From NCBI GenBank assembly GCA_964467035.1, contig CAYXNX010000002.1, forward strand, positions 10,896 through 74,895: a stretch of 64,000 bases of DNA, in the 5' to 3' direction. Source of the DNA: Candidatus Woesearchaeota archaeon (GTDB lineage: Archaea > Nanobdellota > Nanobdellia > Pacearchaeales > GW2011-AR1). This document shows, piece by piece, positions 51,727 through 64,000 of the stretch. Positions within the stretch are counted from its first letter, which is position 1; each line of letters opens with the position of its first letter. Under the pieces are notes generated by a model, which had not been told where the DNA came from, did not search any database, and worked only from the letters and a program-made list of their open reading frames with translations. Made by a program: the position numbers and the translations under genes.

Positions 51727-52016
51727 TTATTTTTCATTTAATAATTCTTTTGTTGTTCTACCATTATCTAAGAAATCAGTTTCTGGAAGAGATTCATTTG
51801 GGTAAATAGTTGTTTTTGTTTGAGTAGATGTTGAGTATAATAATTTGTTGTAATTTAATTTTTGGATTGGATTTTATTCTTGTTCAATTTCTAACCAGTT
51901 TTTTGTGTTGTTTTAATTTTGTGTTGCTTAGATAATTTTTGGCAAGTATTGGTATATTGTGTGGGAAAATAACTAAATCTTTAAAAAATAACCTGTTTAT
52001 TTTGTTTAGTGTGAAA

Positions 52017-52529
52017 ATGAAGAAGCTTGCTTTTGTTGGAACTCATGGAATTGGAAAGACTACTTTGACTCATCAGACTGTTTCAGAATTGAAAAAGAGG
52101 GGAGTTAATGCTGATTTTTTGGGAGAGGTTGTGAGAGATTGCCCTTTACCTATTAATGAAGGAACTTTGGAGGAAAGTCAAATGTGGATTATTCATAGTC
52201 AAATTGTTAAAGAACTTGAAATGAAAAATAAGTGTGATTGGTTGATTTGCGATAGAAGTGTTTTAGATGGATATGTTTATTATTTTAATAAGTTTGGAAA
52301 AAATGAAGTTTTGGAGAATTTAGTTAAAAATTTTCTTAAAAGTTATGATTTAATTGTTAGGGTTAAAATTAATCCAGATTTTTTGAAAGAGGACGGGATT
52401 CGTTCAGTTGATAAAGAATTTCAAAAAGAAATTGATGAAAAAATGTTTAGTTTTTTGAATGAAATGGGGGTTGATTATATTGAGTTTGAAGATGTTGAGA
52501 GAATTTGCGAAAAAATTTTGGAAGCGTAG
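52017..52529 (+). CDS. P-loop NTPase (AAA_28/NadR-like ATPase)
   Basis: FVGTHGIGKTTL Walker A and WLICDRS Walker B-like. The track start at 51939 is non-ATG. Confidence 0.5.
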   Translation: MKKLAFVGTHGIGKTTLTHQTVSELKKRGVNADFLGEVVRDCPLPINEGTLEESQMWIIHSQIVKELEMKNKCDWLICDRSVLDGYVYYFNKFGKNEVLENLVKNFLKSYDLIVRVKINPDFLKEDGIRSVDKEFQKEIDEKMFSFLNEMGVDYIEFEDVERICEKILEA

Positions 52530-55446: not shown

Positions 55447-55899
55447 ATGGAAAGAACGCTGATAATTATCAAACCAGATGGAATTCAAAAAAAATTAGTT
55501 GGAGAAGTAATTAAGAGAATAGAGAAAGAAGAATTAGATATTGTTAATGTTAAAATAATAGAATTAACAGAGGAACAGGTTTCTAAGCTTTATGAAGATT
55601 CCTTAAACAGATTTCCTCAAATCAGAAAAGAAGTCATAGAATATATGACTGAAAACCCCTCAATCATAATGATAATTCAAGGAGATGACGCGATTAAAAA
55701 AGGAAGAGATATTAGGGGTTTGTCTAATCCTTCCAAATCTCCGATAGGTAGTGTGAGAAGAGATTTTGCAGGAGACCAAAATATGGAAGAATTAACCAAA
55801 AATGGAAAGGTTACAAAGAATGTAATGCATGCTTCTGGAAATAAAGAAGAAGTTGAATTTGAAATTAAATTATTCTTTGGAGAAGAAGATGAAATCTGA
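55447..55899 (+). CDS. ndk: Nucleoside diphosphate kinase
   Basis: MERTLIIIKPDG..., RGLSNP..SVRRDF and NVMHAS (active-site His). Confidence 0.9.
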   Translation: MERTLIIIKPDGIQKKLVGEVIKRIEKEELDIVNVKIIELTEEQVSKLYEDSLNRFPQIRKEVIEYMTENPSIIMIIQGDDAIKKGRDIRGLSNPSKSPIGSVRRDFAGDQNMEELTKNGKVTKNVMHASGNKEEVEFEIKLFFGEEDEI

Positions 55900-58639
55900 T
55901 TTTTTTTATTCAAAAACTACTGGATTATATGTTTCAAGAAAACCGCTAAAAATTGATAGCAGAGTAAAAAAAGCAACAGAAAATGAGAATATTGAACTTA
56001 ATTGGGACGATGAAGGGAGAATAAATTTTGTGGATTTTGATGAATCAAAGAGAATTCTTACTCTGTTAGGTTCTACTATGCTAAGTCCTGTTGAATATTG
56101 GAAAGTTTTAGAAGATGCAAAAAATGAAAAAGATGAAGAGATGATTCAGGAGTTGATGTCTAATAAATATTGTGAATGGTTGGATAGGGTTTATCTGATT
56201 GATAAAAACTGGATTGATCATCCAAAAATAATTGGGGATTATGAATATTCTGGCAAAAAAGAGAAATCAGTCGAACCAATTGGAAAACCAGGATGGTTTA
56301 ATCCTGAAAATAATATTAATTTTAAATTGGGTGTTCCAAAAAAAATAAAGTTATTTAGAGATAAGTTTTCGACAAGTTGGAAATATTGGTCTCCTGATTT
56401 TTCTGTGACTAAGCACAGACCAAGAGCCCCTATAAGAGGCTATGTGACTTCTGTTGGAAAACCTTCTTTTGATCAAGGTATCCCTGTTGATGCTAAACAA
56501 CCAATGCAAATGATTAGAGAGTGTAGGACAGAACCTTTAGAACCTCCAATAAAAATAGAAATCTTGAAAACTGCCTTAGAAATATTAAAACAATATGATC
56601 AAAAAAAGATAGATACAAATTTTGTAGTCGAATTTTTGGAAGAGCATGGAAAATTATTTAGGAATTCAAAGCAATTAACAATTTATAAAATAAGAGAGAA
56701 ATTATTTGATTTGCTTGGATTAATGAAAATCAAAACAATAAATGAAAAAGATAATAAAATGTTATCTATGTTGGATAAAGCATCAAGAACCTTATATGAT
56801 TCTGATCTTGAAAAAGTTGGTTTTGATAATTTTTTAGAATTTATTAAAAAATCTAGACAAAGATTGAAAGATGCCCTTGATGAAAAAAAGGATATTGTTT
56901 TTGTAATGGGGCATAAAAATCCAGATACTGATACGGTGATTAGTTGTATCTTTGAGTCTTGGAGAAATCACTTGTTGGATAAAGGACAAATTGTTTATTT
57001 TCCTATTGTCCAGAATTATAAAATTCCAGATGAAGTAAGAAGGCTATTGGGTGATGAAATTTCTGATTCAATCTTACTAGAAAAAGAAGAGGATTACAAA
57101 AAAGCTAAAAATTCAGGTTTAGCCAGATGGATTTCTGTAGATCAAAATAGGGAGCCAGATGTTCAGAGATATTTTATTTCAATTATTGATCATCATGTTC
57201 CTTCTGAAATATCCTTACTTCAAGATTTACCAAAAACAATAGAATTAATTGGATCCTGTACTGCTTTAATATTTCAGAAAATGTTGGGAATAGGATTTTA
57301 TCCAGACAGAAAACTTGCAAAAATTCTTCATGGAGCTACATTGATGGATACAGAAAATAGAGTATTTCATAAGATGACTGAAAAGGATAAAATGATAATG
57401 AACTATTTAAAAGAATTATCTGAAATTAAAAACGAAGATGAATTTTATAGCGATTTAATGTCTTACCTTCTTAACACAGATGATCCAAACATATTATTTG
57501 GAAGAGATTACAAAGAAGACTGGGGATTTGGATTTGCTGTAGCAAAAATTAAAGGAGGTTTTAGTGAAAAAGGAAAAGGAATCAAGGACGATTTAATTAA
57601 AAAAGCTGTTAAATTGGCTCGTGAAAATAATATAAATAAGAATTTTCCTTTAACAATTTTAAGAATTACAGACTATTTGGAAGATAATATTACTGTAAAT
57701 AGGGAAAGAGTTTATCTTGTGTTTAATGAAGAAAGTTCAAAAGAATTTAAATCAGCAATATTTGATTTGTTAGAGAAAATTGTAAAATTTGAATTTGGAG
57801 AGGTTAATATTACTACAACTGGAGAATTTGTGGAGTTTTGGGGAACTGGGATGCAATTATCTCGAAAGAAAACTGCACCAATATTAGAACCTGTTATTAA
57901 AGTTTTTAATGAATATTTTTATTCTCCCAAAAATAAACTTTGGATCAAGAGGGATTTCCTAAAAAGATCTAAAGATGTTTTAAATGCTGGAAAGAAACTA
58001 AAACTAAAAGTTTCTTTTGATCAGGAGCAAAGAGTAAATTATCTCACTTATCCAGAAGCAAGGTTTTTGGTAGAAGAATTGGGGTTTACTATTCTCACAC
58101 TAAAAGAATACTGGCTTGCCTTAAATGATGCTAAGAAAATTGGGGATGTACAAATGATTGACAGCTTACAAGGATCGAATTTTGTAGAATTTTTAGATAC
58201 AATGATTAAAGACTATGGTATTATGCTAGAACATCCTACTATTATTAGAAATGGAGAAGGATATAAGTTTGATGGAAAAAAAGTTGGAGTTGTAATTCCA
58301 AAGGGAAAGCCAAGTTTAATACATCCAGACCAAATAGATCCTAATACAGGAATACCTAAGGAGGTTAGACCTCCTTCAGAATATGGTAATCCTCATCTTT
58401 GGAGATATTGGGAACCTGATTCAAACTTAGTTATCCCTACAAGAAGTTATATATTCTTATTAAAGCAACCTTGCTGGGATGGGAAATTTCATGTTAATGA
58501 TAGTTTTCCAAATTTAGGAATAAGGCCTTGCTGTAAAAAATTAGTTATACCTCATGTAAAAATTAATCAAGATGATAAGAAATTAGAGATTGAAATTAAA
58601 AAAGAAGGGGATACGATAAAGCATACTTGGAAAAAATAA
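55889..58639 (+). CDS. 916-aa protein with a family-II inorganic pyrophosphatase-like DHH/DHHA2 core flanked by two homologous domains of unknown function
   Basis: The ATG overlaps the ndk stop (ATGAAATCTGA). The core carries GHKNPDTDT, VDQNRE, IIDHH, GSCTAL, ILRITDYLEDN and LSRKKTAP. The flanks share EYW..L.DAK, E(W/F)LD, HP.II, GKP and W.YW.PD. Confidence 0.75.
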   Translation: MKSDFFYSKTTGLYVSRKPLKIDSRVKKATENENIELNWDDEGRINFVDFDESKRILTLLGSTMLSPVEYWKVLEDAKNEKDEEMIQELMSNKYCEWLDRVYLIDKNWIDHPKIIGDYEYSGKKEKSVEPIGKPGWFNPENNINFKLGVPKKIKLFRDKFSTSWKYWSPDFSVTKHRPRAPIRGYVTSVGKPSFDQGIPVDAKQPMQMIRECRTEPLEPPIKIEILKTALEILKQYDQKKIDTNFVVEFLEEHGKLFRNSKQLTIYKIREKLFDLLGLMKIKTINEKDNKMLSMLDKASRTLYDSDLEKVGFDNFLEFIKKSRQRLKDALDEKKDIVFVMGHKNPDTDTVISCIFESWRNHLLDKGQIVYFPIVQNYKIPDEVRRLLGDEISDSILLEKEEDYKKAKNSGLARWISVDQNREPDVQRYFISIIDHHVPSEISLLQDLPKTIELIGSCTALIFQKMLGIGFYPDRKLAKILHGATLMDTENRVFHKMTEKDKMIMNYLKELSEIKNEDEFYSDLMSYLLNTDDPNILFGRDYKEDWGFGFAVAKIKGGFSEKGKGIKDDLIKKAVKLARENNINKNFPLTILRITDYLEDNITVNRERVYLVFNEESSKEFKSAIFDLLEKIVKFEFGEVNITTTGEFVEFWGTGMQLSRKKTAPILEPVIKVFNEYFYSPKNKLWIKRDFLKRSKDVLNAGKKLKLKVSFDQEQRVNYLTYPEARFLVEELGFTILTLKEYWLALNDAKKIGDVQMIDSLQGSNFVEFLDTMIKDYGIMLEHPTIIRNGEGYKFDGKKVGVVIPKGKPSLIHPDQIDPNTGIPKEVRPPSEYGNPHLWRYWEPDSNLVIPTRSYIFLLKQPCWDGKFHVNDSFPNLGIRPCCKKLVIPHVKINQDDKKLEIEIKKEGDTIKHTWKK

Positions 58640-59902: not shown

Positions 59903-59978
59903 AATAAATTTTTGGGGGAACAACTTTCTCAAGAAAAAAGACAATCTCTTCTAATAGGGGTGGGTGGTCGGGGGTTTT

Positions 59979-60203
59979 AAAGTGTCCTCTTTACTAACTT
60001 TTTATATTTTAGTTTTGGCTCACGATTGAGTTTAACATCGCGATTAAGAGAAGTCGCCGAAGGCGATTTGGGTGGAGCGAGGTGCAACCGAGCGTAACCT
60101 CATAATCCTTGTTATATTCCCCGAAGGGCTGAAATTTAGTGCAATGTTGGCGAAGCCAAAAAATCAAAGTCGTGAGCCATATTAATTTTAAAGAGGACAC
60201 TTT
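59979..60203. ncRNA. Candidate structured RNA or palindromic element of unknown class
   Basis: Nested long-range helices: 59979-59993 pairs with 60189-60203 (15 bp) and 60016-60025 with 60170-60179 (10 bp). There are three internal C-GAA-G hairpins, and the region is visibly GC-enriched relative to its surroundings. Confidence 0.35.
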
Positions 60204-60326
60204 AGGACTGCAGGTTCCGTCTGTAAAACCCATTAAATGAGAGATGTGTGCGTCTTCTTTGCTTCTTTCTTCCTAAGAAAGAAGATGGGCTCCGAATTTT
60301 GCTTCTTTTTCTAAAAGAAGAAGTTC

Positions 60327-61196
60327 TTAGAAATAATATTCTAAAGCTTCCTTAAATTTTTTATCTTTTGTATTTTTATACAATTCCTCAATTTTTTCTT
60401 TTAATCCATACTTTAAGATTTTCCTCCATAACTCGGGATAATTTTTTTTAATTAAATCCCAATTACCTAATTGAGGATTGCTGAAACATTTTGCAGAACA
60501 CATATAGCAAACGCCATCTCCTTTACATAAATTTTCTGTATCTTTATGAAAATAAATATCTTTAACATACGGAAAATTTAATTTATCAAGAACCTTAAAA
60601 ACTTCCTCTTTTTTCAACATCGCAATAGGCAAAAATAAATTTTCTGGATTTCCAAGTTGTAAATAACCTTTCTCTAAAACTCTTTTATATCTTTTTGGTT
60701 TATCTGATGCTAAGAAACCCATAATTGTTAAATCGGGTTTCAATTTGCTATATTGTTCTTGAAGAATAGCGTCCTTTAATTTACTACAAGCATAATTTAA
60801 GTTTAATTTAGAAAAATCTTTTTTCTCGTATCCCATTTCTTCTATTCCTGGATATATTGGAATTCCAAATTTTTCTATAAATTCTTTTTCACTATAATCG
60901 ATTTTGAAGTAATGTAAATTTTTTATTTTTGGTTTAATATTCTCATTAAATAACTTATTAAAATCAGGAAAATTCATACGCATATCAACATACAAAACAT
61001 TAGTATCTGGTTTGTGTTTCAAAAGAAATGCTAACAGCAATAAGCTATCAGAGCCTCCGCTAAACAGAAGAAGAGGATTTCTAGATAGCTTAAGTCCCTC
61101 AGAAAAGATTTTATCTATTTTGTTAATTTTTTCATCTAAAGACAAATCTAAATCTTCAGGTTTAAATTCAAAGATTGAGTTTTTTTTCGATTTCAT
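60327..61196 (-). CDS. PP-loop ATP pyrophosphatase of the PAPS-reductase family with a C-terminal Cys cluster
   Basis: LLLFSGGSDSLLLLAF (SGGxDS), VLYVDMRMNFPD, IMGFLASDKPKRYKR and CKGDGVCYMCSAKC. The ORF is open up to 61238, and the second Met at 61196 is preferred. Confidence 0.75.
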   Translation of the reverse strand: MKSKKNSIFEFKPEDLDLSLDEKINKIDKIFSEGLKLSRNPLLLFSGGSDSLLLLAFLLKHKPDTNVLYVDMRMNFPDFNKLFNENIKPKIKNLHYFKIDYSEKEFIEKFGIPIYPGIEEMGYEKKDFSKLNLNYACSKLKDAILQEQYSKLKPDLTIMGFLASDKPKRYKRVLEKGYLQLGNPENLFLPIAMLKKEEVFKVLDKLNFPYVKDIYFHKDTENLCKGDGVCYMCSAKCFSNPQLGNWDLIKKNYPELWRKILKYGLKEKIEELYKNTKDKKFKEALEYYF

Positions 61197-61764
61197 CTGA
61201 ATAATCAAATAATTCCTTATGGTGATTGAATGCTTCAAATATTTTTTCTTTGTTTTCTTTTGCTATTTTTTCAGATTCGTTAAAATGAAATTTTCTTTCA
61301 TTCATTTTCTCCATTAATCTTAAAAAAATCTGCTCATCATTCATTTTAAATTTTTCATGCATAATAATTGATTTTCTTATTACTTCTCCAATCGTTGTCT
61401 TTTCTAATTTATCTGCGTCAAAAAGGATTTTTTGAAATTCAGTTTTACAATCTTCAAAAACTCCATGAGTTGAAATTGTTTCTTTGATAATTTTTATTTC
61501 CTCTTTACTAAAATCTTCTCCTAGAAGAATTTCTTCAACCATTTCAACAGAATATTTTTCATGCATATCTTCTCCTTCATTTTCAAATTGTTTTTGATAA
61601 CCAACATCATGGAGGAGTGCACAAACTTGAATCATCCTTTTGTCTTTTTTTTCTAAATTTAATTCTTCTGAAAGCATTGTAGCAAAAGCTAAAACTCTTT
61701 TTACATGGCCCCATTTATTCACAGAGAGGTTTTCATAAATTTTCTTAACTTTTTCTTTTATCAT
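61168..61764 (-). CDS. HD-domain metal-dependent phosphohydrolase
   Basis: GHVKRVLAFATML...VCALLHDVGY (H...HD). Confidence 0.8.
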   Translation of the reverse strand: MIKEKVKKIYENLSVNKWGHVKRVLAFATMLSEELNLEKKDKRMIQVCALLHDVGYQKQFENEGEDMHEKYSVEMVEEILLGEDFSKEEIKIIKETISTHGVFEDCKTEFQKILFDADKLEKTTIGEVIRKSIIMHEKFKMNDEQIFLRLMEKMNERKFHFNESEKIAKENKEKIFEAFNHHKELFDYSDEIEKKLNL

Positions 61765-62737
61765 CTTGTTTTTTCCAATATTTTTCTCTTATGTGACAAT
61801 TCCCACAATTCCAATTTTTTCTGAAGTTCTTTGCTTTTTTAGATAACCATAATTCCTTAAGTTTTGATTTCCTTATATTTCCTAAATGTAATTCTCCTGC
61901 ATTACATTCCCAAACATCTCCCAATACATCAATATACAATCCATATTTGATTTGTCTACATTGGAACCCTCCCAAAAACGGAAGTTGATAAGGATAATTT
62001 AATCCTTTTTCATTATCATAAGTTTTTGCTTCATTATAAATCTTCGTGTATTCTTTCTTATTTAAAACAAGACCTCTTTCTAAAGCCTCTCCATGAGGAA
62101 TTAATCCAGAGAATTGGGGAGATATGTTATTTTCTCTACAAAATTTAAACAAAGGAATTACATCATTTTTATTTATCTTTGTGGCTATACAATCTATAGC
62201 AAGCCTTGGGGGAGATTGTTCATTAAACCCATAATCCATTAAAGTTTTTAATGCTTTTTTTATTTTCTTATCATAACCTTTAACCCCCACCAACTTGTCT
62301 TGAATTTTATTATCAAATGAATTATACTTAAGAATGATAGAAGTCTTTAATCTAAAAAGTCTTTTAACACTTTCTTCATTAATCATAGTTCCATTTGTAT
62401 AAATAACAGAGAGTATTCCTAATTTTGAAGCAAATTCTATGATTTTCCAAAAATTCGGATCTAACATTGGCTCTCCTGCTCCAATAAATTGTAAATTTTT
62501 ACAACCTAATTTTTTTGCTTGTTTTATAATATCATAATATTCTTCTAATAAAAGCTCGTTTTCTTTTTTGCAATGTCTTTCTCCAACACTTGTTTTATCA
62601 CAATAAATACATCTTAAGTTACAAATATTTGACATATCCAAATCTAAATTAAGTAATTTGTTTTCCTTTTCTGCTTCTTCTATTTCTGCATCCGAATAAT
62701 ATAAACCTTTTACGAATGTTTTTTCGAGATTATTCAT
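61745..62737 (-). CDS. Radical SAM enzyme with a SPASM/twitch-like C-terminal Cys cluster
   Basis: CNLRCIYCD (Cx3Cx2C), GAGEPMLD, and C-terminal CRQ...ECN...GNIRKSKLKELW...CGNC. Confidence 0.85.
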   Translation of the reverse strand: MNNLEKTFVKGLYYSDAEIEEAEKENKLLNLDLDMSNICNLRCIYCDKTSVGERHCKKENELLLEEYYDIIKQAKKLGCKNLQFIGAGEPMLDPNFWKIIEFASKLGILSVIYTNGTMINEESVKRLFRLKTSIILKYNSFDNKIQDKLVGVKGYDKKIKKALKTLMDYGFNEQSPPRLAIDCIATKINKNDVIPLFKFCRENNISPQFSGLIPHGEALERGLVLNKKEYTKIYNEAKTYDNEKGLNYPYQLPFLGGFQCRQIKYGLYIDVLGDVWECNAGELHLGNIRKSKLKELWLSKKAKNFRKNWNCGNCHIREKYWKKQDDKRKS

Positions 62738-63254
62738 TTTTTATAACTTCTCCTAATTTGATAATTGCGTCTTCTATTGATAAATCTTTGTTTCTTAATA
62801 AATAATGGGGCAAGTTAAGACAAGAAGAATAAATTTTAGAATATGCAGAATTAAAATTATTCTCTTTGATTATTTGTTCTAGTTCTAAACATCTTCTTTC
62901 TTCTCCATCTTTTTGTCTTCTTTGCAAAACCAATTCAGGATTTGCTTCAACCAAAATAATTTTTCCGGAATATTCTGAATTAAATCTTAAATGCATTTGA
63001 TACTTTTCATCAATTCCCATATGAAAATCATAAGGAGTTTTGCTACTACTTGCAGCGTAGTGGGTATCTATAATAAACTTTCCTTCGGTGTCAATCAATT
63101 CTTGAATAAATCTTTTATCAAATTCTGGACGATATCTTCTGAATCTTTCTCCAGTATTAATGTATTCCAAATCTAATAAAGAAGATATAGCTCTGGCTAA
63201 TGAAGTTTTTCCTACCCCCTTACTTCCTCCTATAAAAATTAGTTCTTTACTCAT
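62730..63254 (-). CDS. P-loop nucleotide kinase resembling archaeal-type adenylate kinase (AdkA family)
   Basis: FIGGSKGVGKTS Walker A, then IIDTHYAASSSKTPY and ILVEANPELVLQRRQKD, collinear with AdkA (VDTH...TP.GY, ...RR). Confidence 0.6.
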   Translation of the reverse strand: MSKELIFIGGSKGVGKTSLARAISSLLDLEYINTGERFRRYRPEFDKRFIQELIDTEGKFIIDTHYAASSSKTPYDFHMGIDEKYQMHLRFNSEYSGKIILVEANPELVLQRRQKDGEERRCLELEQIIKENNFNSAYSKIYSSCLNLPHYLLRNKDLSIEDAIIKLGEVIKNE

Positions 63255-63534
63255 CTTTTATTACAAATTCTGGGACGACATGCCTAACAAAAGAAATGTC
63301 TTCTTTATTTAATTGACCGCCGGATAACAAAAAGGTTTTCCCCTCTCTTCTGTAGCTTACTTCTTTCCCTAATCTATCTAATATTTTTTCTAATTTCTCC
63401 TTGTCAGTATTGCATTCTCTGGAATTGCAAATATCTCTTTGAGAATCTATGCAAGGAAATCCGCAATTATCTTTTTTCCTTTTTTCTCTAATATCATGAC
63501 TATTATAATCTGGTTCTCCAAATAAATAAGACAT
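63247..63534 (-). CDS. Small Cys-containing protein (95 aa); possibly the C-terminal part of the upstream ORF
   Basis: CGFPCIDSQRDICNSRECN. Its reading frame stays open upstream to 63639 without a start codon. Confidence 0.4.
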   Translation of the reverse strand: MSYLFGEPDYNSHDIREKRKKDNCGFPCIDSQRDICNSRECNTDKEKLEKILDRLGKEVSYRREGKTFLLSGGQLNKEDISFVRHVVPEFVIKDE

Positions 63535-63625
63535 TGCACAAGAAGTGTGCCAAAAAACAGGAATTTGTGCAACATCTCCAATTATTTTTGTTGCAAGAGA
63601 TGAGAGTTCATCGTCTCTCTGTTTG

Positions 63626-64000
63626 TTAGTGTATGTTTTTTATTTCTGGGATTGGAATTCCTCTAATTTTTAGTGATTCGACTATCTCTGGAGTTAATCT
63701 TATCCCGGAGAGTGAAGAGGCATCAACTTTTCCTTTTATTTGAGAAGCTAAATTTGTCAACCTTTCTTCGTCTATCCATTCCCTAACTAAGGGACGAACA
63801 TAATCCACAACTTTGATACCTTTCTTTTTTGCATCATCCATTAATTTAATTCTTTGTTCATAAAAAACAGATTCTAAGCCTGGAATTAAATTTGCATAAG
63901 AAACAAAAAGCCCTATTTTTAAATGTTCTAATTTATTTAATTCATCCAAATAATCTTCTCCAGGATGAATCTTTGAAATTAATCCAATTTTATTTTTCCA
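63626..64000 (-). CDS. Hypothetical protein, 5' end outside the window
   Basis: The frame is open to nt 64000, so the listed start at 63949 is an internal TTG. Partial sequence ...KIHPGEDYLDELNKLEHLKIGLFVSYANL... has no family I can assign. Confidence 0.45.
   Translation of the reverse strand, partial: WKNKIGLISKIHPGEDYLDELNKLEHLKIGLFVSYANLIPGLESVFYEQRIKLMDDAKKKGIKVVDYVRPLVREWIDEERLTNLASQIKGKVDASSLSGIRLTPEIVESLKIRGIPIPEIKNIH

What the first reader, a model, noticed from the sequence alone, without database searches (positions are those of the whole stretch)
60327..64000. Translationally coupled operon (kinase, radical SAM/SPASM-like, HD hydrolase, PAPS-reductase-family PP-loop enzyme) with no assignable pathway
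Six consecutive minus-strand ORFs are packed with start/stop overlaps at 63247-63254, 62730-62737, 61745-61764 and 61168-61196. In order of transcription they are as follows. First come a partial ORF running off the window and a Cys-containing 95-aa ORF, which may be one gene. Next is an archaeal-AdkA-like P-loop nucleotide kinase (GGSKGVGKTS, IIDTH). Then a radical SAM enzyme (CNLRCIYC) with a C-terminal auxiliary-cluster region (CRQ..ECN..GNIRKSKLKELW..CGNC). Then an HD phosphohydrolase (LLHDVGY). Last is a PP-loop ATP pyrophosphatase of the PAPS-reductase/DndC-like family (FSGGSDS, VDMRMNFPD, CKGDGVCYMCSAKC). Phosphorylation, radical chemistry, dephosphorylation and adenylation/thiolation-type activation together suggest stepwise synthesis or modification of a nucleotide-derived molecule or a nucleic-acid base. 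It does not fit the pathways I know. It is not preQ0 (no QueD/FolE, and the PP-loop enzyme is not QueC-like). It is not Dnd/Ssp phosphorothioation (no cysteine desulfurase, SMC-like or nickase partners). It is not a prokaryotic viperin module either, because the rSAM has a SPASM/twitch-like tail, although a kinase neighbour is typical of those systems. An alternative is RiPP-type chemistry, with the small Cys-containing ORF as substrate. The operon lies in a stretch with unusually long structured spacers and orphan genes, consistent with an accessory island. It is a candidate for an undescribed nucleotide-modification or antiviral small-molecule system.
Basis: partly seen in the sequence, partly recalled or inferred. 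Interest (0 to 1): 0.7.

Follow-up and report, generated by a model that had tools for sequence, protein, structure and literature searches.

The report
Mobile radical-SAM nucleotide-tailoring operon in DPANN archaea
A compact, mobile five-gene operon found only in a few tiny symbiotic archaea most likely makes an unknown modified nucleotide or nucleoside. It is built around an uncharacterised radical-SAM enzyme family that elsewhere is fused to immune-type and nucleotide-hydrolysing domains.

Summary
The ORFs, their start/stop overlaps and all domain calls are real. There are five genes, not six. The partial ORF and the 95-aa Cys ORF are one ~351-aa gene ("gene A"), split in this assembly by one extra A in a poly-A run. 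Gene A is a second radical SAM enzyme whose nearest solved fold is spore photoproduct lyase, with an extra invariant Cys site.

The cassette gene A / AdkA-like kinase / twitch-type rSAM / HD / Fe-S-type PP-loop enzyme recurs in about 8 independent Pacearchaeota/Woesearchaeota lineages with unrelated flanks. It is bracketed by direct repeats. One 4,030-nt copy is 99.4% identical in two different contexts, so the cassette is mobile and accessory.

A sister cassette keeps gene A, the kinase and a phosphohydrolase (MutT-like NUDIX) but swaps the tailoring enzymes. More distant gene A relatives are fused to MazG-like, TIR or deoxyribosyltransferase-like domains. On bacterial plasmids they sit with ThyA-like, NDK, MazG and NUDIX genes.

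No gene reaches any curated family cutoff. Viperin, Dnd/Ssp, preQ0, MoaA, CysH and RiPP readings fail. The best reading is a nucleoside-analogue-type pathway with the logic of thmABC (4'-thiothymidine); the product is unknown.

The parts
63638..64000 (-). Gene A, N-terminal part: radical SAM core with the CPLRCAYC motif. It continues outside the window to the ATG at window-equivalent 64306.
   Evidence: L001:218-886. Pfam Radical_SAM 29.4 bits. Orthologues are single ~351-aa ORFs. The AlphaFold model of the close orthologue P0020 has pLDDT 94 and its nearest PDB fold is spore photoproduct lyase, TM 0.52.
63636..63641 (-). A6 homopolymer that interrupts gene A. One extra A relative to orthologues puts a stop 4 codons downstream in frame 0.
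   Evidence: Orthologues have GAAATAAAAAC (A5) or an interrupted run. Skipping one A restores ...PEIKTYTNKQRD..., as in all relatives.
63247..63636 (-). Gene A, C-terminal part in the +1 frame.
   Evidence: The 129 codons are open and have dN/dS 0.06-0.18 against intact orthologues.
62730..63254 (-). AdkA-like P-loop NMP-kinase-type kinase (174 aa).
   Evidence: The profile matches archaeal adenylate kinases in the PDB at E 1.6e-10, sharing the DTH..KTPY and RR motifs. It scores 45 bits against a cutoff of 155 on the AdkA equivalog model. It matches PADLOC VakA weakly (25 bits).
61745..62737 (-). Radical SAM enzyme with a single auxiliary-cluster ('twitch'/partial SPASM) tail (330 aa).
   Evidence: Pfam Radical_SAM 72.8 bits and SPASM 39.9 bits. 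All NCBIfam equivalogs are far below cutoff. Conserved Cys at 39/43/46 and 260/278/314. Wider relatives pair with or are fused to class I methyltransferases, or to CYTH.
61168..61764 (-). HD-domain phosphohydrolase (198 aa) with a six-residue conserved pattern: H20, H52-D53, H68, H100, D118.
   Evidence: Pfam HD 53 bits and HDIG 31.8 bits. Alignment. The closest PDB relatives are themselves uncharacterised HD hydrolases.
60327..61196 (-). PP-loop ATP pyrophosphatase of the PAPS-reductase superfamily (289 aa) with SGGSDS and three invariant cysteines (C137, C230, C233).
   Evidence: Pfam PAPS_reduct 39.5 bits. Only 18 relatives among 5.8 billion proteins. The model has pLDDT 92.5, and its nearest folds are [4Fe-4S]-LarE, CysH, TtuA and the GMP synthetase ATPPase at TM 0.4-0.48. 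Alignment.
59950..60326 (-). GC-richer structured segment between the PP-loop stop and the downstream repeat copy. It may be a non-coding RNA or an attachment-site region.
   Evidence: MFE -98.9 kcal/mol against -75.5 +/- 5.6 for shuffles, z = -4.2, with two C(UUCG)G hairpins. No Rfam match. Its 3' part has a homologue upstream of the cassette in L024.
59955..59993 (-). Downstream copy of a ~40-nt direct repeat (exact core ACCCCCGACCACCCACCCCTA) that brackets the cassette. The upstream copy is at L001:4-42, window-equivalent 64482-64520, outside the window.
   Evidence: The motif is unique in the 64-kb window, with 0.01 matches expected by chance. There is one copy in L001. Alignment; blastn 39 nt at 89.7%.

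Best explanation
This is a mobile, accessory five-gene operon of Pacearchaeota/Woesearchaeota. It most likely encodes a biosynthetic pathway that converts an ordinary nucleotide into a modified nucleotide or nucleoside.

The conserved engine is a triad: (i) gene A, a spore-photoproduct-lyase-like radical SAM enzyme with an extra 3-4-Cys metal/Fe-S site; (ii) an AdkA-like NMP kinase; (iii) a phosphohydrolase, which is HD here and MutT-like NUDIX in the sister cassette.

Proposed mechanism (inferred):
- The kinase supplies or activates the phosphorylated substrate (NMP to NDP/NTP, or a cryptic phosphorylation).
- Gene A carries out the key radical (5'-deoxyadenosyl) C-H activation on the sugar or base.
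- In this cassette type two tailoring enzymes follow. A twitch-type rSAM does a second radical step. A PP-loop enzyme with three invariant Cys adenylates a carbonyl or carboxyl group and replaces the oxygen with sulfur or nitrogen, in the manner of LarE, TtuA, QueC or GMP synthetase.
- The HD hydrolase removes phosphates, either to release the product or to keep the toxic triphosphate out of the producer's own pools.

The logic matches known rSAM + kinase + NTPase nucleoside-analogue clusters: thmABC for 4'-thiothymidine, albomycin AbmM/AbmG, oxetanocin OxsA/OxsB, and viperin + kinase.

Shown: gene content, conservation, purifying selection, mobility, family relationships and fusions. Inferred: substrate class, order of steps, sulfur or nitrogen chemistry, and biological role (antagonism, defence or self-marking).
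For: (1) Cassette conservation. A-kinase-rSAM/SPASM-HD-PP occurs in about 8 independent lineages with unrelated flanks. All five genes have dN/dS 0.04-0.18.

(2) Invariant triad. The sister cassette (about 10 lineages) keeps gene A, the homologous kinase and a MutT-like NUDIX (E 1e-12 to MutT). It replaces rSAM/SPASM + PP-loop with a (TIM-barrel-)methyltransferase, an IucA/IucC-like protein and sometimes a U32 protein. Reduced forms A-u372-K-HD (L026) and A-K-HD-PP (L011) exist.

(3) The kinase is NMP-kinase-like. Its profile hits archaeal AdkA structures at E 1.6e-10, with shared DTH..KTPY and RR motifs.

(4) Fusions and partners of the wider family. Gene A's wider family has 708 representative clusters. 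It includes fusions to a MazG-like NTP pyrophosphohydrolase (P0190/P0316, Nealsonbacteria; YpjD E 1e-3), to a nucleoside 2-deoxyribosyltransferase-like domain, to TIR, and to TCAD9 + APH kinase. On bacterial plasmids A-like rSAM sits with a DEDDh exonuclease, an AAA_28 small NTPase/kinase and an aldo/keto reductase or HD protein. In Streptomyces ThyA-like, NDK, MazG-like and NUDIX genes are added.

(5) The PP-loop protein's nearest folds act on mononucleotides or nucleobases: [4Fe-4S]-LarE, GMP synthetase ATPPase, TtuA. It has three invariant Cys, like Fe-S-dependent sulfur transferases.

(6) Accessory and mobile behaviour fits secondary-metabolite or conflict functions: flanking direct repeats; a 99.4%-identical 4,030-nt cassette in two contexts; a deletion derivative, L008; and the frameshift in this window.

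(7) A published analogue exists. thmABC (rSAM + nucleoside kinase + NTPase) suffices to make 4'-thiothymidine, ThmC confers self-resistance, and the cluster also moves between unrelated flanks (PMC12691670).
Against: - No product, substrate or activity is known for any of the five families. All functional assignments stop at superfamily level.
- Gene A's best structural match is a DNA-acting enzyme, SPL, though only at TM 0.52 and 14% identity, barely ahead of PFL-AE, HydE and RlmN.
- Bacterial relatives pair with a DEDDh exonuclease, and type 2 cassettes can include a U32 protein. From general knowledge, U32 is a family that includes RNA base hydroxylases. Both hint at polynucleotide substrates.
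- PP-loop enzymes with 3-Cys clusters also include tRNA thiolases and DndC.
- Homology to ThmA/B/C, AbmM/AbmG or OxsA/B could not be tested because no sequences were available. The small kinases of the bacterial operons (AAA_28) are not homologous to the window's kinase, so the parallel is one of logic, not ancestry.
- Gene A is interrupted in this genome, so this copy may be inactive.
Confidence: 0.5

Rival explanations
1. Pre-replicative nucleic-acid hypermodification. The cassette makes a modified (d)NTP that is meant to be incorporated into the organism's or element's own DNA or RNA as a protective mark. The HD/NUDIX/MazG enzymes deplete the canonical competitor nucleotide, as in phage dNTP-pool reprogramming.
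For: The Streptomyces relatives combine a ThyA-like enzyme, NDK, a small kinase, MazG-like and NUDIX genes with the A-like rSAM. From general knowledge, this is the gene set typical of phage hydroxymethyl-pyrimidine and dNTP-exclusion pathways. The kinase + NTP-hydrolase pairing is invariant. NDK lies 4.5 kb from the cassette in the window. L011 carries a reduced cassette on an orphan-rich, co-directional, mobile-element-like contig next to a phage-type phosphoesterase.
Against: There is no polymerase, glycosylase, transferase or restriction partner in the archaeal cassettes. No relatives were found in IMG/VR or in cultured phage genomes. The archaeal cassettes have no ThyA-like gene. Nothing links the cassette to a cognate nuclease that would read the mark.
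Confidence: 0.2
2. In-situ nucleic-acid repair or modification. Gene A acts on DNA or RNA like spore photoproduct lyase or RlmN. The kinase and HD heal ends or process nucleotides, and the PP-loop enzyme thiolates a base or the backbone, like TtuA or DndC.
For: SPL is the top structural neighbour of gene A, and JGI labels the family 'DNA repair photolyase'. Bacterial relatives are coupled to a DEDDh 3'-5' exonuclease. TtuA and CysH are among the PP-loop protein's neighbours. Type 2 cassettes carry an AP_endonuc_2-type TIM barrel, a methyltransferase and sometimes U32. In L002 the cassette lies next to HhH-GPD and Ogg glycosylase genes.
Against: The kinase is AdkA-like, an NMP kinase, and not Pnk- or Clp1-like. 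The hydrolases are MutT-, MazG- or HD-type nucleotide enzymes, and one is fused directly to the rSAM. The SPL match is weak (TM 0.52, 14% identity), and a sequence search of the PDB found no SPL at E <= 1. DndD/DndE, a cysteine desulfurase and a nickase are absent. A mobile, sporadic, often-decaying cassette is unusual for repair or tRNA modification.
Confidence: 0.15
3. RiPP-type peptide maturation, with the small Cys-rich ORF as precursor and the SPASM rSAM as maturase.
For: The SPASM domain and weak similarity to sactipeptide, PQQ and mycofactocin maturases. A Cys-rich 95-aa ORF lies upstream.
Against: The 95-aa ORF is the C-terminal Cys module of gene A. It is a single ORF in all orthologues, with invariant cysteines across a family of 708 clusters. 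There is no separate small conserved ORF in any locus. The rSAM/SPASM gene is dispensable in L011 and L026. Only one auxiliary cluster is present. The partners are nucleotide enzymes.
Confidence: 0.02
4. Housekeeping nucleotide salvage or cofactor biosynthesis in a reduced DPANN genome. For example, the kinase is the cell's adenylate kinase, the rSAM is MoaA-like and the PP-loop enzyme is CysH-like.
For: DPANN archaea depend on salvage (general knowledge). The kinase resembles AdkA. The rSAM scores 60 bits on MoaA models. The flanking genes are housekeeping.
Against: All scores are far below the curated cutoffs: AdkA 45/155, MoaA 60/284, CysH 14.5/165. The PP-loop family has only 18 clusters and gene A has 37 close clusters among 5.8 billion proteins. 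Only 10 of 185,579 GTDB species representatives carry gene A. The cassette is mobile, deleted in L008 and frameshifted here.
Confidence: 0.05

Closest known systems
thmABC cluster for 4'-thiothymidine (Photorhabdus; PMC12691670), and the albomycin AbmM/AbmG steps cited there
   Same: Same three-part logic: a radical SAM enzyme, a nucleoside/nucleotide kinase and a nucleotide triphosphatase in one tight cluster. thmABC also moves between unrelated flanks. The NTPase gives self-resistance. In albomycin the rSAM AbmM uses an Fe-S cluster as sulfur donor. Here both rSAMs and the PP-loop enzyme carry extra Cys clusters.
   Different: Homology is untested because no ThmA/B/C or Abm sequences were available. 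ThmB and AbmG are described as nucleoside kinases homologous to each other, whereas this kinase is AdkA-like. This cassette has two rSAMs and a PP-loop enzyme, occurs in DPANN archaea, and its product is unknown.
Prokaryotic viperin (pVip) with associated kinase
   Same: A radical SAM enzyme next to a small nucleotide kinase. There are weak profile matches (pVip 58 bits over the rSAM core only; VakA 25 bits). The expected substrate is at nucleotide level.
   Different: The viperin equivalog model scores 50.7 bits against a cutoff of 180. The matching rSAM has a SPASM/twitch auxiliary cluster, and it is the dispensable one. The conserved rSAM (gene A) has no viperin similarity at all. The HD and PP-loop partners are not part of pVip systems.
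Spore photoproduct lyase (SplB, COG1533)
   Same: Best structural neighbour of gene A (4fhc, TM 0.52, E 5.5e-8). N-terminal CxxxCxxC radical SAM core of similar size. JGI annotates the family as 'DNA repair photolyase'.
   Different: About 14% identity. No SPL hit by sequence at E <= 1. Gene A has an additional invariant TSC...C...C cysteine site and a C-terminal alpha/beta domain. The partners are nucleotide-pool enzymes, and the organisms do not form spores.
PP-loop sulfur/nitrogen transferases acting on nucleotides or nucleobases ([4Fe-4S]-LarE, TtuA, QueC, GMP synthetase ATPPase) and PAPS reductase/DndC
   Same: SGGxDS PP-loop, the same core fold (TM 0.4-0.48), and three invariant cysteines as in Fe-S-dependent thiolases and DndC (DndC features from PMC10853773).
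   Different: No subfamily model is reached: CysH 14.5/165, CysD 18/195, QueC 13.5/22, TilS 19/94, BrxP 17 bits, and no DndC or SspD hit. No significant PDB sequence match. It forms a tiny family of its own, with 18 clusters.
Oxetanocin A genes OxsA (HD phosphohydrolase) and OxsB (radical SAM)
   Same: From general knowledge: an rSAM enzyme remodels a deoxyadenosine phosphate and an HD phosphohydrolase processes the phosphates of the analogue. That is the same rSAM + HD pairing on a nucleotide.
   Different: From general knowledge, OxsB is B12-dependent, and no B12 domain is present here. Homology was not tested. There is no kinase or PP-loop enzyme in that system.
Uncharacterised bacterial plasmid operon: A-like rSAM / DEDDh exonuclease / AAA_28 / aldo-keto reductase or HD
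   Same: The anchor rSAM is homologous (127-194 bits to the gene A profile). It is again coupled to a small P-loop NTPase/kinase and a hydrolase, and sits on mobile DNA next to toxin-antitoxin, HNH, methylase and recombinase genes.
   Different: The small NTPase belongs to a different family (AAA_28; no HMM match to the window kinase). It has an exonuclease and an aldo/keto reductase instead of rSAM/SPASM and PP-loop. It is also uncharacterised and absent from PADLOC.

Membership tests
Prokaryotic viperin (pVip) system | Viperin-family radical SAM protein reaching the curated model (NF038283, cutoff 180 bits) | tested here: not met
   The rSAM/SPASM protein scores 50.7 bits. The PADLOC pVip match of 58 bits covers only the rSAM core, residues 34-192. 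Gene A has no pVip match.
Prokaryotic viperin (pVip) system | Adjacent nucleotide kinase | tested here: met
   An AdkA-like kinase is translationally coupled upstream. It matches VakA weakly (25 bits, E 4.9e-6).
Dnd / Ssp DNA phosphorothioation | DndC/SspD-type PP-loop protein | tested here: not met
   The PADLOC scan gives only BrxP at 16.8 bits, with no DndC or SspD model hit at E <= 0.01. NCBIfam lists no DndC hit.
Dnd / Ssp DNA phosphorothioation | Obligate DndD (ABC/SMC-like ATPase) + DndE pair, cysteine desulfurase, or SspB nickase/SspC ATPase partners (core as defined in PMC10853773) | tested here: not met
   None of these is present in or next to the cassette in any of about 20 cassette loci.
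preQ0 / 7-deazaguanine pathway | QueC, QueE, QueD and FolE homologues | tested here: not met
   QueC Pfam 13.5 bits against a cutoff of 22. QueE model 35.8 against 260. No QueD or FolE in any locus.
MoaA (GTP 3',8-cyclase) | Score at or above the equivalog cutoff (284 bits) | tested here: not met
   59.7 bits. PDB MoaA E about 1e-4 over the rSAM core only.
PAPS/APS reductase CysH or sulfate adenylyltransferase CysD | Score at or above the subfamily cutoffs (165 and 195 bits) | tested here: not met
   CysH 14.5 bits and CysD 18.3 bits. Only the generic PAPS_reduct domain passes, at 39.5 bits.
Archaeal adenylate kinase AdkA | Score at or above the equivalog cutoff (NF003122, 155 bits); a housekeeping, single-copy role | tested here: not met
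   45.2 bits, C-terminal half only. It is related to AdkA (PDB profile E 1.6e-10) but always cassette-bound and sporadic. Whether the genome has another Adk could not be checked from 64 kb.
Spore photoproduct lyase (SPL) | Sequence-level family membership | tested here: not met
   A phmmer search of an intact orthologue against all PDB chains finds no SPL at E <= 1. The structural match is only TM 0.52 at 14% identity.
Spore photoproduct lyase (SPL) | Catalytic H-donor Cys/Tyr network and DNA-lesion-binding hairpin | not tested
   No residue-level structural superposition tool was available, so this needs an explicit superposition on 4fhc/4fhf.
SPASM/twitch radical SAM subfamily | SPASM domain match | tested here: met
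   PF13186 scores 39.9 bits against a cutoff of 21.5.
SPASM/twitch radical SAM subfamily | Full seven-Cys motif for two auxiliary clusters | tested here: not met
   Only C260, C278 and C314 (plus C311 in most) are conserved. This fits a single auxiliary cluster of the twitch type.
RiPP maturation system | Separate precursor peptide gene co-conserved with the maturase | tested here: not met
   The 95-aa ORF is the C-terminus of gene A. No other small conserved ORF is found in the cassettes.
thmABC-type nucleoside-analogue gene cluster | Tight co-clustering of an rSAM, a nucleoside/nucleotide kinase and a nucleotide triphosphatase that travel together between unrelated flanks | tested here: met
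   The triad is invariant across about 20 lineages. Flanks are unrelated. The defining description is from PMC12691670.
thmABC-type nucleoside-analogue gene cluster | Homology of the components to ThmA, ThmB and ThmC | not testable with these tools
   The sequences are not held in any accessible collection. The paper gives only genome accessions.
Catalogued anti-phage defence systems (PADLOC v2) | Anchor protein matches a defence-system model; defence-island context | tested here: not met
   Intact gene A orthologues and bacterial relatives give 0 hits. Only the fused TIR parts match. The archaeal flanks are housekeeping genes.

The most novel reading that the evidence does not exclude
The spore-photoproduct-lyase-like radical SAM family anchored by gene A is the catalytic core of a previously unrecognised, horizontally mobile class of nucleotide-analogue-producing conflict systems. 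The family has about 700 sequence clusters across DPANN archaea, CPR bacteria, Streptomyces, rhizobial and cyanobacterial plasmids. Some members are fused to TIR, deoxyribosyltransferase-like, MazG-like or kinase domains. On this reading the Pacearchaeota cassette makes a new nucleotide, possibly sulfur-containing, that these episymbiotic archaea use against viruses, competitors or their hosts.
Probability: 0.3. Interest if true: 0.85.

Novelty: new variant of a known kind. Interest (0 to 1): 0.62.

Why it matters
DPANN archaea have tiny genomes with few accessory pathways, yet this lineage maintains, moves and sometimes loses a five-enzyme, iron-sulfur-rich cassette. That argues for a strong conditional benefit.

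If the cassette makes a modified nucleotide or nucleoside, it would be one of the first secondary-metabolite- or immunity-type chemistries assigned to these organisms. It would also be a possible source of a new nucleoside analogue, a compound class with proven antiviral and antibacterial value.

The anchor enzyme family is large, unnamed and absent from defence catalogues, but it shows immune-type fusions (TIR, NDT-like) and nucleotide-pool partners in bacteria. One biochemical characterisation would therefore annotate hundreds of gene clusters across both domains.

The cassette also gives a clean, bounded test object of 4.03 kb with defined ends.

Tried and rejected
- Viral origin: scans of IMG/VR with the gene A profile, the PP-loop profile and an L011 protein found nothing. 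A broader gene A profile (A6) was too divergent for the scanner. tblastn of gene A relatives and an L011 protein against 50,697 phage genomes gave no match. PHROGs on L011 gave only one phage-type phosphoesterase. L011 therefore remains 'mobile-element-like, unverified'.
- Defence catalogue: PADLOC gave no match for gene A or its bacterial relatives.
- Sequence-only PDB searches for gene A and the PP-loop protein were uninformative.
- The HD profile only reached uncharacterised HD structures.
- Rfam found nothing in the structured downstream segment or upstream leader.
- The sigma-70/terminator scan is not applicable to archaea and was not enriched.
- The 113-kb source contig could not be recovered. 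Only the 4.3-kb Logan contig was returned, so the sequence upstream of the first repeat copy is unknown.
- Literature searches for the gene combination found no description. The eLife conflict-systems paper's rSAM mention concerns another system.
- I considered that the small ATPase of the bacterial plasmid operons was the orthologue of the window kinase. I rejected this: there is no HMM match, and it is AAA_28.
- I considered a programmed -1 frameshift at A AAA AAC and rejected it. The -1 frame does not restore the protein; only skipping one A (a +1 shift or a 1-nt deletion) does.

Full report
OBSERVATION. Pfam and NCBIfam confirm every domain call at superfamily level. The kinase hits AAA_17, plus the archaeal adenylate kinase model at 45 bits against a cutoff of 155. 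The rSAM hits Radical_SAM at 72.8 bits and SPASM at 39.9 bits. The HD protein scores 53 bits and the PP-loop enzyme hits PAPS_reduct at 39.5 bits. No product reaches any curated equivalog cutoff: tungsten-cofactor maturase 88/380, MoaA 60/284, viperin 51/180, CysH 14.5/165, CysD 18/195, QueC 13.5/22. The window is a 29%-GC archaeal chromosome encoding MCM, ATP-dependent DNA ligase, archaeal ProRS, GatB, several aaRS, TBP, aIF-2beta and NDK. Relatives are labelled Pacearchaeota, Woesearchaeota or Nanoarchaeota.

FIVE GENES, NOT SIX. An exact-protein look-up returned a 4.3-kb Logan contig (L001). It is identical to the window over 3,779 nt and extends 523 nt beyond nt 64000. It completes the first ORF: 226 aa with a CPLRCAYC radical-SAM motif. 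In every orthologous locus this ORF and the 95-aa 'Cys-containing ORF' form a single ~351-aa gene, here called gene A. The window has A6 at 63636-63641 where orthologues have A5 or an interrupted run. Skipping one A restores ...PEIKTYTNKQRD...VPVFWHTSCAMSYLF... exactly. The 129 codons after the shift are fully open, and their dN/dS is 0.06-0.18 against intact orthologues, the same as the other four genes at 0.04-0.18. The interruption is therefore recent, an artefact, or bypassed by slippage. The RiPP idea with this ORF as precursor is refuted.

WHAT THE PROTEINS ARE.
- Gene A. It has invariant GCxxxCxYCxxxKD and four further invariant cysteines in the DPANN clade. Three of these stay invariant down to about 20% identity across the wider family, together with N93, E133 and R159-P160. 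A confident model (pLDDT 94) is closest to spore photoproduct lyase, but only at TM 0.52 and 14% identity, just ahead of PFL-AE, HydE and RlmN. Sequence search finds no SPL.
- Kinase. Its profile matches archaeal AdkA structures at E 1.6e-10, with the shared DTH..KTPY.F..G block and RR pair. It is an NMP-kinase-type enzyme.
- rSAM/SPASM. It conserves only three or four C-terminal cysteines, so it is a single-cluster 'twitch' type.
- HD. It conserves H20, H52-D53, H68, H100 and D118. It only resembles uncharacterised HD structures.
- PP-loop protein. It has SGGxDS and three invariant Cys. It has only 18 relatives among 5.8 billion proteins and no significant PDB sequence match. Its model (pLDDT 92.5) matches [4Fe-4S]-LarE, CysH, TtuA and the GMP synthetase ATPPase only at the level of the common core, TM 0.4-0.48.

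CONSERVATION AND MODULARITY. I mapped gene order in 41 loci from exact look-ups, GTDB genomes and JGI metagenomes.
- Type 1 cassettes (A / kinase / rSAM-SPASM / HD / PP-loop) occur in about 8 distinct lineages, each with different flanks.
- Reduced forms exist. L011 has A-K-HD-PP on an orphan-rich, co-directional contig. L026 has A-u372-K-HD between EF-2 and ribosomal/RNAP genes. L013 has an extra u372 gene.
- Type 2 cassettes occur in about 10 lineages, where gene A is at 33-39% identity. They keep gene A and the homologous kinase but have a MutT-like NUDIX (E 1e-12) instead of HD. They add a methyltransferase, often fused to an AP_endonuc_2-type TIM barrel, a 411-aa protein weakly like IucA/IucC, and sometimes a U32 protein.
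The invariant core is therefore gene A + AdkA-like kinase + a nucleotide phosphohydrolase, and the rest is interchangeable tailoring. The rSAM/SPASM family is wider. At 40-45% identity it occurs in Patescibacteria and Aenigmarchaeota, where it pairs with or is fused to class I methyltransferases, and one member has a CYTH fusion. Gene A is absent there, so this is a recruited module.

THE WIDER GENE A FAMILY POINTS TO NUCLEOTIDES AND CONFLICT. An exhaustive profile search of 1.84 billion representatives finds 708 clusters at E <= 1e-3 and 98 at E <= 1e-30. Fused forms include:
- TIR + A-like rSAM;
- a nucleoside 2-deoxyribosyltransferase-like domain + A-like rSAM;
- TCAD9 + APH kinase + A-like rSAM;
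- a MazG-like NTP pyrophosphohydrolase + A-like rSAM in Candidatus Nealsonbacteria (UniRef name; the N-terminal domain matches YpjD at E 1e-3).
On bacterial plasmids the A-like rSAM sits in a conserved operon with a DEDDh exonuclease, an AAA_28 small P-loop NTPase/kinase and an aldo/keto reductase or a dGTPase-like HD protein. The surroundings hold toxin-antitoxin, HNH, methylase and recombinase genes. In Streptomyces the operon is extended by ThyA-like, NDK, MazG-like and NUDIX genes. The AAA_28 protein is not homologous to the window kinase, so this is a parallel of logic. None of this is in PADLOC.

MOBILITY.
- The window cassette is bracketed by a ~40-nt direct repeat with a 21-nt exact GC-rich core. 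The core is unique in the 64-kb window, with 0.01 matches expected by chance. One copy is at 59955-59993 and the other at L001:4-42, just outside the window.
- Between the PP-loop stop and the downstream copy lies a 377-nt segment that folds much better than shuffles (z = -4.2). It has two C(UUCG)G hairpins and no Rfam match. Its 3' part has a homologue upstream of the cassette in L024.
- In L025 an unrelated 52/53-nt direct repeat brackets the cassette, and its downstream copy overlaps the 3' end of a convergent ThrRS gene.
- L024 and L025 share exactly 4,030 nt at 99.4% identity, from about 50 nt upstream of gene A to the PP-loop stop codon, and nothing else.
- L008 is L006 with a clean 3.2-kb deletion that removes gene A, the kinase and the start of the rSAM/SPASM gene.
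- Only 10 of 185,579 GTDB species representatives carry gene A.
The cassette is thus a discrete, mobile, dispensable unit, even though its neighbours are mostly housekeeping genes.

INTERPRETATION. The evidence favours chemistry on free nucleotides. The kinase is NMP-kinase-like. The obligatory partner is an NTP/NMP hydrolase (HD, MutT-like NUDIX, or MazG by fusion). Bacterial relatives recruit ThyA-like and NDK enzymes. The PP-loop enzyme's nearest folds include enzymes that adenylate mononucleotides or nucleobases. A published three-gene cluster has the same logic: thmABC (rSAM + nucleoside kinase + NTPase) is sufficient for 4'-thiothymidine, and the NTPase confers self-resistance. In albomycin the rSAM AbmM donates sulfur from its Fe-S cluster, and the kinase AbmG acts through cryptic phosphorylation (PMC12691670 and references cited there).

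I therefore propose that the operon makes a modified nucleotide or nucleoside. Sulfur or nitrogen insertion is plausible given the cysteine-rich sites, but it is not shown. Rival readings are: pre-replicative DNA/RNA hypermodification (0.2); in-situ nucleic-acid repair or modification, supported by the SPL-like fold, the exonuclease partners and the TtuA/DndC-like features (0.15); housekeeping salvage (0.05); and RiPP maturation (0.02). Dnd/Ssp membership fails because the obligate DndD/DndE core described in PMC10853773 is absent and there is no DndC or SspD model match.

LIMITS. No activity is known for any component. Homology to Thm, Abm or Oxs proteins could not be tested. The source contig upstream of the first repeat copy was not recoverable. 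The viral nature of L011 is unverified. The gene A copy in this window may be inactive.

VERDICT. This is a real, conserved, mobile and uncharacterised operon. Its gene count, its RiPP alternative and its 'island' argument are corrected. The general kind (rSAM + kinase + NTPase nucleoside-analogue clusters, and viperin-type systems) is known. This is a new variant with a new anchor enzyme family. Interest 0.62.

Noticed in passing
window 59950-60326 (minus strand): A 377-nt GC-richer segment downstream of the operon folds far better than shuffles (z = -4.2) and contains two C(UUCG)G tetraloop hairpins. It has no Rfam match. Its 3' end is one copy of the direct repeat that brackets the cassette, and a related piece lies upstream of the cassette in L024. 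It may be an unannotated RNA gene serving as an integration site.
   Followed up: partly
L024:1072-5101 and L025:351-4380: The same 4,030-nt cassette at 99.4% identity sits in two contigs whose flanks are otherwise unrelated. In L025 it is bracketed by a 52/53-nt direct repeat whose downstream copy overlaps the end of a ThrRS gene. No integrase lies inside the repeat-bounded unit.
   Followed up: partly
L006:2891-6055 versus L008: L008 is a precise 3.2-kb deletion derivative of L006 that has lost gene A, the kinase and the N-terminal part of the rSAM/SPASM gene. ~196-nt inverted repeats (about 85% identity) and several HNH genes lie upstream of the cassette in the L006-L008 contigs, and a tyrosine integrase lies about 2 kb downstream.
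   Followed up: partly
L045-L050 (bacterial plasmids: Streptomyces, Gluconobacter, Labrenzia, Nostoc, Mesorhizobium): An uncharacterised conserved operon: A-like radical SAM / DEDDh 3'-5' exonuclease / AAA_28 small NTPase / aldo-keto reductase or dGTPase-like HD. In Streptomyces it is extended by ThyA-like, NDK, MazG-like and NUDIX genes. It sits among toxin-antitoxin, HNH, methylase and recombinase genes and is not in PADLOC.
   Followed up: partly
P0247, P0192, P0271, P0190/P0316 (proteins from the exhaustive search): Gene-A-like radical SAM domains are fused to TIR, to a nucleoside 2-deoxyribosyltransferase-like domain, to TCAD9 + APH kinase, and to a MazG-like NTP pyrophosphohydrolase. The last is from Candidatus Nealsonbacteria and was seen on 25 contigs.
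   Followed up: partly
L009:232-4203: About 4 kb upstream of a type 2 cassette is a separate co-directional cluster: rSAM / rSAM (Fer4_12) / DUF2064 (CofC-like nucleotidyltransferase) / 202-aa protein / CYTH triphosphatase. It may be another nucleotide-directed radical SAM pathway. A CYTH-SPASM fusion (P0069) also exists at 73% identity to the window's rSAM/SPASM.
   Followed up: no
L013:1510-2628 and L026:8047-9165: A conserved 372-aa protein with no Pfam match is inserted between gene A and the kinase in two lineages. In L026 it accompanies a cassette that lacks both the rSAM/SPASM and PP-loop genes.
   Followed up: no
window 55447-55899 and 51939-52529 (+ strand): A nucleoside diphosphate kinase gene lies 4.5 kb from the operon, and an AAA_28 (NadR-like) small NTPase lies 8 kb away. 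AAA_28 is the family that partners the A-like rSAM on bacterial plasmids. This may be coincidental.
   Followed up: no
window 55829-58639 (+ strand): A 936-aa protein has a central DHH/DHHA-type (Mn-dependent pyrophosphatase-like) region, flanked by N- and C-terminal regions that look similar to each other by eye ('...EYWKVLEDAKN...' versus '...EYWLALNDAKK...'). It converges on the operon region. Function unknown.
   Followed up: no
window 1-64000: GC skew is strongly positive across the first 60 kb, where genes are mostly on the + strand. It turns negative over 60-64 kb, where the operon is on the minus strand. This shows a marked coding-strand G-over-C (GC-skew) bias in this genome.
   Followed up: no
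L001:185-217 (window-equivalent 64307-64339, outside the window): A TTTATAAT box lies 22-29 nt upstream of the gene A start codon, and 120-155 nt of upstream sequence is conserved with L012 and L024 at 78-86% identity. This suggests an archaeal promoter with a very short or absent leader and a conserved regulatory region.
   Followed up: no
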